This document shows positions 42,501 through 45,500 of a DNA stretch of 64,000 nt, one piece after another (position 1 is the stretch's first letter; every line of letters begins with the position of its first letter). Position numbers: made by a program. The stretch comes from Escherichia coli (GTDB taxonomy: Bacteria; Pseudomonadota; Gammaproteobacteria; Enterobacterales; Enterobacteriaceae). The stretch lies in the NCBI RefSeq assembly GCF_051903065.1, contig NZ_CP178438.1, one strand, 5' to 3'.

Positions 42501-45500
42501 AAATCATATTCCCAGTGACCAAAACCAATCATTTGATCATTGATTTGCGTTTCTCCTTTAAAGCCGAGACGGGCATAAGTTTTATCACCATCGTCACGCT
42601 TATCATCAGTAAAATAACGTAGAGCGGTAACCTTGCCATAAAGGTCGAGTTTATTACCATCCTTGTTATAGACTTCGGCAGCGTGTGCTACGTTCGCAGC
42701 TAACAAACCAGTTACAACCACCGCAACTATTTTTAATTTCATTTAACAGAATCCTTTTAATTATCGTTAAACGTATTTTTTAAACGAATTTTAAACGGCG
42801 TCATTTATAAATGACATACTGTTTTTAAAATAGAATGGTGATTAAAAACAATGAGAAAAATAGATGAAATAATATTATTTATCGATATGTGATCGAAGTC
42901 GAAATGAGATATAAGGTGAATTACTGGTATTTGAAATTTATTTTTTTAATATTGTCGGAATTTATCTGATTAACTGCCGGGCCGTAGACCCGGCAGTTAT
43001 TTTAACCACGACGTGTCGCCAGCCAGCAGAGCAGGGAACCGCCGCAGACCATTAGCGCGCCTTGCCAGAATGAGAACGACAGCGGGGCGCTGAGCAGCAT
43101 GGCTGCAAGCGCTGAGGAAAGTACGGGCGTAAAATACGAACCTACCGCCATAATGGTGACGTTGCCATGCAATATACCGACATTCCATGCAGCATAAGCA
43201 AATCCTAAGGTAAATGCCGCAGAGATGAGTTTAATTATGACGGGCGTGCTAAATACCATTTCTGGTTGTGGCGTGAGAAAATAGTAAACCCACAGACTTG
43301 CTCCCGTTAGCAGGACAAAAACGGTAATTCCGTTAAATCCGCGGGCGTATTTATTCGTTACTGTGCAATAAGCGGCCCAGATAAACGCACCAATGAACGC
43401 CAGGAAATAACTCAATGGGCTGGTGGTGATATTATTGATGATTTCATCATAATGTAACCCATTGTCACCGCCTAACACCCAGCAGACGCCGACGAGGGCT
43501 AATAATAATCCAGGTACAATCAACCAGTTAGTTTTCTGACCATTAAACAGAATGGCAAAGAGAATTGTCAGGCTGGGCCACAGATAGTTCACCATACCCA
43601 CTTCAATCGCCTGATGACGGGTCGCCGCATACCCTAAGGAAAGCGCCAGACAGATTTCATAGCTGACGAATAACAGACTCCCGGCGAGTAAATAGCCTTT
43701 CGGGATTTTCCGAATACGCGGAAATCCAACCGTGAAGATTAACAGCAGCCCGCTTAATGAATAGATAGCAGCTGCGCCGCCGACCGGGCCGAGCCCCTCA
43801 CTGACACCGCGAATCAATCCTACCATCGTGCTCCACAGGACGATCGCTATTAGCCCTATGAGCGTTGCTTTTTGTCGTGTCATGCTCGCTGTTTTGTCTC
43901 TCTTGCCGTTAAAAATTAAGCTGAATTTTATAGCATTTTTTTAACTGGCCTGTCAGGCAGTGGTGCGTTTTTCTACCGCTATTGAGGTAGGTCAATTTGC
44001 GCAGGCGGATTATTTTGTGGCAAACACGTGTTCTTTTTGATTTCGCGCAAAAAGATTCAGAATTTTACTGTTAGTTTCCTCGCGCAGTAATACCCCTGAA
44101 AAAAGAGGAAAGCAATGGACGTCAGTCGCAGACAATTTTTTAAAATCTGCGCGGGCGGTATGGCTGGAACAACAGTAGCGGCATTGGGCTTTGCCCCGAA
44201 GCAAGCACTGGCTCAGGCGCGAAACTACAAATTATTACGCGCTAAAGAGATCCGTAACACCTGCACATACTGTTCCGTAGGTTGCGGGCTATTGATGTAT
44301 AGCCTGGGTGATGGCGCGAAAAACGCCAGAGAAGCGATTTATCACATTGAAGGTGACCCGGATCATCCGGTAAGCCGTGGTGCGCTGTGCCCGAAAGGGG
44401 CCGGTTTGCTGGATTACGTCAACAGCGAAAACCGTCTGCGCTACCCGGAATATCGTGCGCCAGGTTCTGACAAATGGCAGCGCATTAGCTGGGAAGAAGC
44501 ATTCTCCCGTATTGCTAAGCTGATGAAAGCTGACCGTGACGCTAACTTTATTGAAAAGAACGAGCAGGGTGTAACGGTAAACCGTTGGCTTTCTACCGGT
44601 ATGCTGTGTGCCTCCGGTGCCAGCAACGAAACCGGGATGCTGACCCAGAAATTTGCCCGCTCCCTCGGGATGCTGGCGGTAGACAACCAGGCGCGCGTCT
44701 GACACGGACCAACGGTAGCAAGTCTTGCTCCAACATTTGGTCGCGGTGCGATGACCAACCACTGGGTGGATATCAAAAACGCTAACGTCGTAATGGTAAT
44801 GGGCGGTAACGCTGCTGAAGCGCATCCCGTCGGTTTCCGCTGGGCGATGGAAGCGAAAAACAACAACGATGCAACCTTGATCGTTGTCGATCCCCGTTTT
44901 ACGCGTACCGCTTCTGTAGCGGATATTTACGCACCTATTCGTTCCGGTACGGACATTACGTTCCTGTCTGGCGTTTTGCGCTACCTGATCGAAAACGACA
45001 AAATCAACGCTGAATACGTTAAGCATTACACCAACGCCAGCTTGCTGGTGCGTGATGATTTTGCTTTCGAAGACGGTCTGTTCAGCGGCTACGACGCTGA
45101 AAAACGGCAATACGATAAATCGTCCTGGAACTATCAGTTCGATGAAAACGGCTATGCGAAACGCGATGAAACACTGACTCATCCGCGCTGTGTGTGGAAC
45201 CTGCTGAAAGCGCACGTTTCCCGCTACACGCCGGACGTTGTTGAAAACATCTGTGGTACGCCAAAAGCCGACTTCCTGAAAGTGTGTGAAGTGCTGGCCT
45301 CCACCAGCGCACCGGATCGCACAACCACCTTCCTGTACGCGCTGGGCTGGACGCAGCACACCGTGGGTGCGCAGAACATCCGTACTATGGCGATGATCCA
45401 GTTGCTGCTCGGTAACATGGGTATGGCCGGTGGCGGCGTGAATGCATTGCGTGGTCACTCCAACATTCAGGGTCTGACTGACTTAGGTCTGCTCTCTACC

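What the first reader, a model, noticed from the sequence alone, without database searches (positions are those of the whole stretch)
44700..44745. Selenocysteine recoding site in fdnG
A single in-frame TGA separates two long ORFs in the same frame and is followed directly by a stem-loop with a GUC-containing apical loop, the arrangement of a bacterial SECIS. The ORF track splits the gene here, so automated annotation would probably report two fragments.
Basis: partly seen in the sequence, partly recalled or inferred. Interest (0 to 1): 0.35.

Follow-up and report, generated by a model that had tools for sequence, protein, structure and literature searches.

The report
Known selenocysteine site in E. 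coli fdnG

Summary
Confirmed and already known. The window is E. coli chromosome, 100% identical to strain 23CRST027. The TGA at 44700-44702 is codon 196 of fdnG (44115-47162, +), the catalytic subunit of formate dehydrogenase-N. It joins a 195-codon ORF and an 803-codon ORF in one frame. The joined protein matches PDB 1KQF chain A end to end, and that chain has a non-standard residue at 196.

The 59 nt at 44697-44755 hit Rfam SECIS_3 at 84.3 bits (gathering score 63), the only such hit in the window. The hairpin has bulged U17 and loop G23-U24-C25, counted from the U of UGA, as in the fdhF SECIS.

Hairpin stability alone is unremarkable (z = -1.37). The support comes from three other results:
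- Compensatory changes at synonymous codon positions across species.
- 120 of 121 homologous sites carry TGA.
- The longest identical run between the paralogs fdnG and fdoG (71 nt, against 74.8% overall) sits on the SECIS.

RefSeq annotates one 3048-nt CDS. Published mass spectrometry shows Sec at position 196.

Interest is low.

The parts
44115..47162 (+). fdnG coding sequence: 1015 codons plus stop, with UGA at codon 196 read as selenocysteine. It encodes the alpha (catalytic, molybdopterin) subunit of formate dehydrogenase-N.
   Evidence: Translation. RefSeq annotates the same 3048-nt span as one fdnG CDS. Full-length single-stretch match to PDB 1KQF chain A, 1-1015 to 1-1015, E = 0.
44124..44144 (+). 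Twin-arginine (Tat) signal motif S-R-R-Q-F-F-K in the N-terminal signal peptide of FdnG.
   Evidence: Read directly from the translation. A Tat signal peptide of FdnG/FdoG is mentioned in PMC3636253. Not tested further here.
44700..44702 (+). UGA selenocysteine codon (Sec196).
   Evidence: Sequence. PDB 1KQF has a non-standard residue (X) at position 196, aligned to this codon. TGA at 120 of 121 homologous sites. Mass spectrometry found Sec and never Cys at 196 (PMC3636253).
44697..44755 (+). SECIS element as delimited by the Rfam SECIS_3 model (RF01989).
   Evidence: 84.3 bits against gathering 63, all 59 model positions matched. The fdoG copy in MG1655 is identical and scores the same.
44705..44745 (+). 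The whole predicted stem-loop: lower stem 44705-44712 with 44737-44745, G 44743 bulged.
   Evidence: Minimum-free-energy and centroid structure. The lower helix is 81% paired across 64 distinct sequences, and 2 of its 8 pairs change on both sides.
44714..44731 (+). Upper mini-helix, nt 15-32 counted from the U of UGA. This is the part expected to bind SelB: G15-G16, bulged U17 (44716), a 5-bp stem, and loop G23-U24-C25 (44722-44724).
   Evidence: Fold. 90.6% of cells paired, and 4 of 7 pairs change on both sides. U17 and U24 are invariant, but the search pattern fixed U17. Positions 23-25 are GTC or GTT in 57 of the 65 distinct 50-mers tabulated, which include the one TGC site. The determinants U17/G23/U24 and the 11-nt spacing are taken from PMC8659212.
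47175..48059 (+). fdnH, the beta (Fe-S) subunit. Same operon.
   Evidence: ORF list. RefSeq annotation.
48052..48705 (+). fdnI, the gamma (cytochrome b) subunit. Same operon.
   Evidence: RefSeq annotation of the identical strain, shifted by one base to window coordinates. The stop coincides with ORF 48010..48705.

Best explanation
This is the selenocysteine recoding site of Escherichia coli fdnG. The UGA at 44700-44702 is codon 196 of one 1015-residue protein, the catalytic subunit of nitrate-inducible formate dehydrogenase-N. The mRNA directly 3' of the UGA, still inside the coding sequence, folds into the SECIS stem-loop.

Mechanism (established for E. coli, inferred here, not tested):
1. 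The apical mini-helix, with bulged U17 and loop G23/U24, is bound by the C-terminal domain of the elongation factor SelB.
2. SelB carries Sec-tRNA(Sec), the selC product, which is charged through SelA and SelD.
3. The tethered ternary complex is delivered to the ribosomal A site when the UGA arrives there, about 11 nt upstream of the mini-helix.
4. Sec is inserted in competition with release factor 2.
5. Sec196 then serves as a ligand of the molybdenum centre of the enzyme.

Shown here: gene identity, the in-frame UGA, the SECIS family match, the geometry of the determinants, covariation, and conservation of TGA.
For: - Gene identity. 100% DNA identity to annotated fdnG-fdnH in RefSeq E. coli genomes. 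5425 of 5426 complete genomes hold the region. Full-length match to PDB 1KQF, which has a non-standard residue at 196.
- SECIS family. Rfam SECIS_3 at 84.3 bits against gathering 63, the only gathering-level RNA hit in the 64-kb window. Positive controls: fdoG gives SECIS_3 at 84.3 bits and fdhF gives SECIS_2 at 87.1 bits.
- Geometry. Bulged U17, G23 and U24 sit at the same distances from the UGA as in fdhF. They match the published determinants (PMC8659212).
- Cross-species test. A pattern that allowed any TGN and left most of the hairpin free found 121 sites, 120 TGA and 1 TGC.
- Covariation. Pair 18-30 is GC in 38 sequences, AU in 14 and CG in 2. Pair 21-27 is AU in 32 and CG in 25. Both partners of each pair are third codon positions (Val/Ala and Ala/Leu), so the protein does not explain the co-variation. 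85.5% of cells are paired, against 26.7-55.1% when partners are slid. 0 of 500 shuffles reach the observed covariation score.
- Paralog test. fdnG and fdoG are 74.8% identical in DNA, but their longest identical run (71 nt; the next is 36) is window 44697-44767. It is a run of 23 identical codons, where identical-amino-acid codons match 60% of the time elsewhere.
- Trans factors. selA-selB are present in 5425 and selC in 5424 of 5426 complete E. coli genomes.
- Literature. Sec196 of FdnG/FdoG was seen by MS/MS and Cys never. Translation ends at UGA 196 in a selC mutant (PMC3636253).
Against: Nothing contradicts the explanation. Its weak points:
- The hairpin's free energy is not distinguishable from shuffled sequence (z = -1.37 and +0.39).
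- Part of the conservation of the hairpin sequence is forced by the conserved peptide U-H-G-P-T-V-A-S-L-A-P-T-F-G.
- Many rows of the covariation alignment are related, so the shuffle control overstates significance.
- The search pattern fixed C10-C11, G16-U17 and U37-U38-Y39-G40-G41.
It is also restricted to homologs that keep FGRGAMTNHW.
- selD, SelB binding and Sec insertion in this particular strain were not tested.
Confidence: 0.98

Rival explanations
1. The TGA is an inactivating nonsense mutation: fdnG is a pseudogene in this strain, and the hairpin is incidental.
For: An ORF scan shows two fragments. Hairpin energy is within the range of shuffled sequence.
Against: The 101 nt around the TGA are at least 99% identical in 5406 of 5433 E. 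coli records. TGA is found at 120 of 121 homologous sites across several phyla. Both halves are intact and match 1KQF end to end. RefSeq does not flag a pseudogene.
Confidence: 0.005
2. The two ORFs are separate genes: a small Tat-signal/Fe-S protein, and a large catalytic protein starting at ATG 44751.
For: Public gene calls do list a 195-aa protein and an 803-aa protein with exactly these sequences on at least 1000 contigs each.
Against: The solved structure is a single 1015-residue chain that spans the junction, including the 16 codons (44703-44750) between the TGA and the ATG. Those 16 codons, HGPTVASLAPTFGRGA, are the conserved active-site peptide. MS identified the peptide V-U196-HGPTVASLAPTFGR, which crosses the UGA (PMC3636253).
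Confidence: 0.005
3. The UGA is read through by a near-cognate standard tRNA (Trp or Cys) without the selenocysteine machinery. The hairpin would only slow the ribosome or hinder release factor 2.
For: No result obtained here favours it.
Against: The hairpin carries the specific SelB determinants at the canonical spacing and belongs to a curated SECIS family. Cys was never found at 196, and translation stops at codon 196 in a selC mutant (PMC3636253). The sel genes are near-universal in E. coli.
Confidence: 0.01

Closest known systems
E. coli fdnG Sec196 codon and SECIS (Berg et al. 1991, cited in PMC3636253; Rfam RF01989 SECIS_3; structure PDB 1KQF)
   Same: It is this very element. The DNA is identical to annotated fdnG in RefSeq genomes, the protein matches 1KQF full length, and all 59 positions of the Rfam model are matched above the gathering score.
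   Different: Nothing of substance. The window comes from a non-K-12 strain, 100% identical to strain 23CRST027.
E. coli fdoG SECIS (formate dehydrogenase-O alpha subunit, Sec196)
   Same: The 59-nt SECIS is identical base for base, and 71 nt in all are identical. The Rfam score and the Sec position are the same.
   Different: A paralogous gene at another chromosomal site. The genes are 74.8% identical in DNA and 77.1% in protein overall.
E. coli fdhF SECIS (formate dehydrogenase-H, Sec140; Rfam RF01988 SECIS_2), the experimentally dissected model SECIS
   Same: Identical over GUCUGACACGG, and the same CGGU.GCA.GUCU core. Bulged U17 and G23/U24 lie at the same distance from the UGA.
   Different: fdhF has a 4-nt loop (GGUC) on a 4-bp upper stem, against a 3-nt loop (GUC) on a 5-bp stem here. 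The lower stem differs in sequence. The window element scores only 28.8 bits on SECIS_2 (gathering 70), so the two are separate Rfam families.

Membership tests
Bacterial SECIS (SelB-dependent; Rfam SECIS_3 / fdnG-fdoG type) | In-frame UGA inside the coding sequence of a protein whose two halves form one polypeptide | tested here: met
   One internal stop at codon 196. A single-stretch match, 1-1015, to 1KQF chain A spans it.
Bacterial SECIS (SelB-dependent; Rfam SECIS_3 / fdnG-fdoG type) | Score at or above the curated gathering threshold of the family's covariance model | tested here: met
   84.3 bits against 63, model positions 1-59 of 59. Controls with fdoG and fdhF behave as expected.
Bacterial SECIS (SelB-dependent; Rfam SECIS_3 / fdnG-fdoG type) | Stem-loop directly 3' of the UGA, with the apical mini-helix starting about 11 nt after the codon | tested here: met
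   The minimum-free-energy structure pairs nt 6-13 with 38-46 and nt 15-22 with 26-32. The mini-helix starts at nt 15. The spacing rule is from PMC8659212. Fold energy alone is not significant (z = -1.37).
Bacterial SECIS (SelB-dependent; Rfam SECIS_3 / fdnG-fdoG type) | SelB determinants: bulged U17, and G23 and U24 in the apical loop | tested here: met
   U17 = 44716 is bulged, and loop G23-U24-C25 = 44722-44724. U17 and U24 are invariant, but U17 was fixed by the search pattern. GUC or GUU is the loop in 57 of the 65 distinct 50-mers tabulated, which include the one TGC site.
Bacterial SECIS (SelB-dependent; Rfam SECIS_3 / fdnG-fdoG type) | Helix maintained by compensatory changes in relatives | tested here: met
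   4 of 7 upper-helix pairs change on both sides. 85.5% of cells are paired, against 26.7-55.1% for slid controls. Covariation score 0.241 against 0.135 for shuffles, reached by 0 of 500. The co-varying positions are synonymous third positions.
Bacterial SECIS (SelB-dependent; Rfam SECIS_3 / fdnG-fdoG type) | Genome encodes the trans-acting machinery (selA, selB, selC, selD) | tested here: inconclusive
   None of these genes lies in the window, and no tRNA was found there. At species level, selA-selB are in 5425 and selC in 5424 of 5426 complete E. coli genomes. selD was not searched, and this strain was not checked individually.
Bacterial SECIS (SelB-dependent; Rfam SECIS_3 / fdnG-fdoG type) | SelB binding and actual selenocysteine insertion at the UGA | not testable with these tools
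   Literature only: MS/MS peptide V-U196-HGPTVASLAPTFGR, Cys never seen, and termination at codon 196 in a selC mutant (PMC3636253).
Formate dehydrogenase-N alpha subunit (FdnG) | Full-length sequence identity with the characterised enzyme, and the fdnGHI operon context | tested here: met
   1KQF chain A, 2392.9 bits, 1-1015. fdnH and fdnI follow directly. The flanking genes yddG and yddM-adhP match RefSeq E. coli.

The most novel reading that the evidence does not exclude
The perfect 71-nt identity between fdnG and fdoG runs about 22 nt past the 3' end of the hairpin, to 44767. This could mean that the functional element is longer than the canonical SECIS, for example an extended helix that encloses the UGA or a site that affects ribosome pausing. 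Alternatively, the two paralogs may be homogenised here by recurrent gene conversion. The cross-species check did not support an extended helix, but it does not exclude an enterobacterial-specific extension.
Probability: 0.08. Interest if true: 0.2.

Novelty: already known. Interest (0 to 1): 0.05.

Why it matters
For discovery it does not matter. Sec196 of FdnG and its SECIS have been described since 1991, are in Rfam, and are visible in a crystal structure.

It has some practical value as a calibration case. The first-stage reader recognised a genuine recoding site correctly from raw sequence. The case also shows that generic gene callers still deposit the two halves as separate proteins, at least 1000 contigs each, while RefSeq joins them. 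Fold energy alone would not have validated it; the covariance model, synonymous-site covariation and the paralog comparison did.

Tried and rejected
1. Thermodynamic significance of the hairpin. z = -1.37 for the 46 nt and +0.39 for 76 nt. This is not usable as evidence, so I relied on the covariance model and covariation instead.

2. An extended lower helix that pairs CGUC (upstream of the UGA) with GAUG and A3-C4 with G47-U48, as in the 76-nt fold. Across 86 distinct TGA-bearing 76-mers, the only freely variable partners pair in 44% (A3 with N48) and 62% (Val third position with Ala third position) of sequences. The other pairs are fixed by the protein sequence. There is no support for a conserved extension.

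3. 'A single stop between two long same-frame ORFs' as a criterion. It occurs 5 times in the window, and 4 are ordinary gene junctions such as ydcT/ydcU at 7455 and fdnG/fdnH at 47160. It is not diagnostic by itself.

It was repeated with C at residue 196.

5. The pseudogene, two-gene and non-Sec read-through explanations were rejected (see the rival explanations).

6. No tRNA (selC) lies in the window. The promoter and terminator scan around the operon gave nothing beyond chance, except a terminator-like hairpin at 48906-48931, about 200 nt after the fdnI stop codon.

Full report
**Observation.** The sequence at 44700-44702 is TGA. The mechanical ORF list gives 44115..44702 (195 aa) and 44751..47162 (803 aa) on the + strand. 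Both starts are divisible by 3, so the two ORFs share a frame. Translating 44115-47162 gives 1015 codons with one internal stop at codon 196, in the context ...DNQARV*HGPTVASLAPTFGRGAMTNHW....

- a lower stem, nt 6-13 with 38-46;
- an upper stem, nt 15-22 with 26-32, with U17 bulged;
- a 3-nt apical loop G23-U24-C25, at 44722-44724.

**Is it more than chance?** Not by the two simple criteria. The fold energy (-12.7 kcal/mol) has z = -1.37, and 21 of 200 dinucleotide shuffles fold at least as well. With more flank the z-score is +0.39. A single stop between two open stretches of at least 150 codons in one frame occurs five times in the window, and four of those are ordinary gene junctions. Stronger tests were needed.

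**Identity of the gene.**
- The 3.3 kb around the site is 100% identical to RefSeq E. coli chromosomes, where it is annotated fdnG-fdnH. 5425 of 5426 complete genomes hold the region.
- The first 24 kb of the window are also 100% identical to strain 23CRST027.
- The neighbourhood is the standard one: narU-narZ and the rest of that nitrate reductase cluster, yddG, fdnGHI, yddM, adhP, maeA.
- With C substituted at residue 196, the joined protein matches PDB 1KQF chain A (formate dehydrogenase-N major subunit) in a single stretch, 1-1015 to 1-1015, at 2392.9 bits.
- The PDB sequence has a non-standard residue (X) exactly at 196. The Desulfovibrio and related homologs in the PDB are named 'selenocysteine-containing' and show X at the same column. 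One of those entries (9qm0) has Cys there.

**Identity of the RNA element.**
- Rfam SECIS_3 (RF01989) matches 44697-44755 on the + strand at 84.3 bits (gathering score 63). All 59 model positions are matched. E = 2.7e-19 in the 12-kb search and 1.4e-18 over the whole window, where it is the only gathering-level hit.
- As positive controls, MG1655 fdoG gives SECIS_3 at the same score and fdhF gives SECIS_2 at 87.1 bits.
- The three E. coli SECIS elements align without gaps. fdoG is identical to the window over all 59 nt. fdhF shares GUCUGACACGG and the CGGU.GCA.GUCU core.
- Counted from the U of UGA, the bulged U17 and loop G23/U24 occupy the positions described for the fdhF SECIS as SelB contacts, with the mini-helix 11 nt from the codon (PMC8659212; folds).

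**Independent test 1, relatives.** I scanned one genome per species with a pattern built on the protein motif. It allowed any TGN at the Sec position and left most hairpin positions free.
- 120 sites have TGA and one has TGC. The TGC site is in Cupriavidus sp. WGlv3 (L085).
- The hosts span Gamma- and Betaproteobacteria, deltaproteobacterial lineages, Actinomycetota, Chloroflexi, Acidobacteria, Gemmatimonadetes and others.
- On 64 distinct sequences, the E. coli structure is 85.5% paired, against 26.7-55.1% when the 3' partners are slid by 1-3 columns. The covariation score is 0.241 against 0.135 for shuffles, reached by 0 of 500.
- Pair 18-30 is G-C in 38 sequences, A-U in 14 and C-G in 2. 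Pair 21-27 is A-U in 32 and C-G in 25.
- Position 18 is the third position of the Val codon, 30 that of an Ala codon, 21 that of an Ala codon and 27 that of a Leu codon. The co-variation is therefore between synonymous sites, and the protein cannot explain it.
- The single Cys homolog has CAC at positions 23-25, so it has no G23-U24.
- Caveats: many rows are related, the pattern fixed some hairpin positions, and only homologs that keep FGRGAMTNHW were sampled.

**Independent test 2, paralogs within E. coli.** fdnG (window) and fdoG (MG1655) are 77.1% identical in protein and 74.8% in DNA. Where the amino acid is the same, the codon is the same 60% of the time. Their longest perfectly identical DNA run is 71 nt (the next longest is 36). 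It is gene nt 583-653, or window 44697-44767, beginning 3 nt before the UGA. It corresponds to 23 consecutive identical codons, and the next longest such run is 12. Synonymous sites are thus frozen exactly where the SECIS lies.

**Trans factors and experiment.** The window holds no tRNA, and the sel genes lie elsewhere in the genome. selA-selB occur in 5425 and selC in 5424 of 5426 complete E. coli genomes. selD was not searched. PMC3636253 reports three relevant results. The MS/MS peptide V-U196-HGPTVASLAPTFGR from FdnG/FdoG was identified. Cys was never found at 196. Translation ends at UGA 196 in a selC mutant. That paper cites Berg et al. 1991 for the original demonstration and Jormakka et al. 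2002 for the structure.

**Mechanism.** The established model, inferred here rather than tested, is that SelB-GTP-Sec-tRNA(Sec) binds the apical mini-helix of the SECIS through the C-terminal domain of SelB. It is then positioned to decode the UGA in the A site, in competition with release factor 2. Sec196 becomes a ligand of the molybdenum centre.

**The annotation remark.** RefSeq annotates a single 3048-nt fdnG CDS in all three records inspected. An exact-sequence look-up, however, shows that both the 195-aa N-terminal fragment and the 803-aa C-terminal fragment are on record as separate proteins, each on at least 1000 contigs. One copy of the N-terminal fragment is even named 'sulfate ABC transporter substrate-binding protein'.

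**Rejected ideas.** An extended helix enclosing the UGA, suggested by the 76-nt fold, is not supported across species. Its only free partner positions pair in 44% and 62% of sequences. The pseudogene, two-gene and non-Sec read-through explanations are contradicted by the conservation of TGA, the single-chain structure and the published MS data.

**Verdict.** The finding is real, correctly interpreted and already known. Novelty: already known. Interest: 0.05.

Noticed in passing
window 44697-44767: The perfectly identical run between fdnG and its paralog fdoG is 71 nt long and extends about 22 nt beyond the 3' end of the SECIS hairpin (44745). The overall DNA identity of the two genes is 74.8%. 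The cause could be gene conversion or an extended constraint. An extended helix is not supported across species.
   Followed up: partly
L004, L006, L019, L021, L028, L067, L068, L079, L106 (match sites listed): Deltaproteobacterial-type homologs (Mailhella, Desulfovibrio, Syntrophaceae, Desulfomonile) keep the TGA. They have a different, shifted hairpin (for example CGGCUCU-GGC-AGAGUCG), not the GGU...GUC... type. These account for most of the unpaired cells in the covariation table.
   Followed up: no
L085 (Cupriavidus sp. WGlv3), match on the - strand: This is the only homolog among 121 with a Cys codon (TGC) in place of TGA. Positions 23-25 read CAC, so the G23-U24 loop determinants are absent, as expected when the SECIS is no longer needed.
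   Followed up: partly
window 44115-44699 and 44751-47159: Both halves of fdnG are deposited as separate proteins in public collections, on at least 1000 contigs each. One 195-aa copy (EFN8991448.1) is named 'sulfate ABC transporter substrate-binding protein', which is an evident misannotation.
   Followed up: yes
window 48818-48860 (+), and 48906-48931 (+): A sub-threshold Rfam match to ES036/CssrF sRNA (30.7 bits, gathering 37.6) lies in the fdnI-yddM spacer. A 10-bp terminator-like hairpin with a T-run follows it and is probably the fdnGHI terminator.
   Followed up: no
window about 21030-27450: A small island holds type VI secretion PAAR and VgrG genes, an M23 metallopeptidase and a hypothetical gene, followed by a frameshifted IS1A and an ISAs1 transposase remnant. 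Strain ECNB21-M121, the other close relative inspected, matches the first 24 kb in 3 pieces spread over about 29.6 kb, so it differs in content somewhere in window 1-24000.
   Followed up: no
window 41642-42742 (-): A 366-aa porin gene next to yddG is annotated 'ompC' in RefSeq, although it is not at the canonical ompC locus. From memory, this position in K-12 holds the truncated porin gene yddL. That was not checked here.
   Followed up: no
window 7455-7457: There is another TGA between two long same-frame open stretches (375 and 313 codons). This is simply the ydcT stop abutting the ydcU start at 7458. No SECIS-like Rfam hit occurs there.
   Followed up: yes
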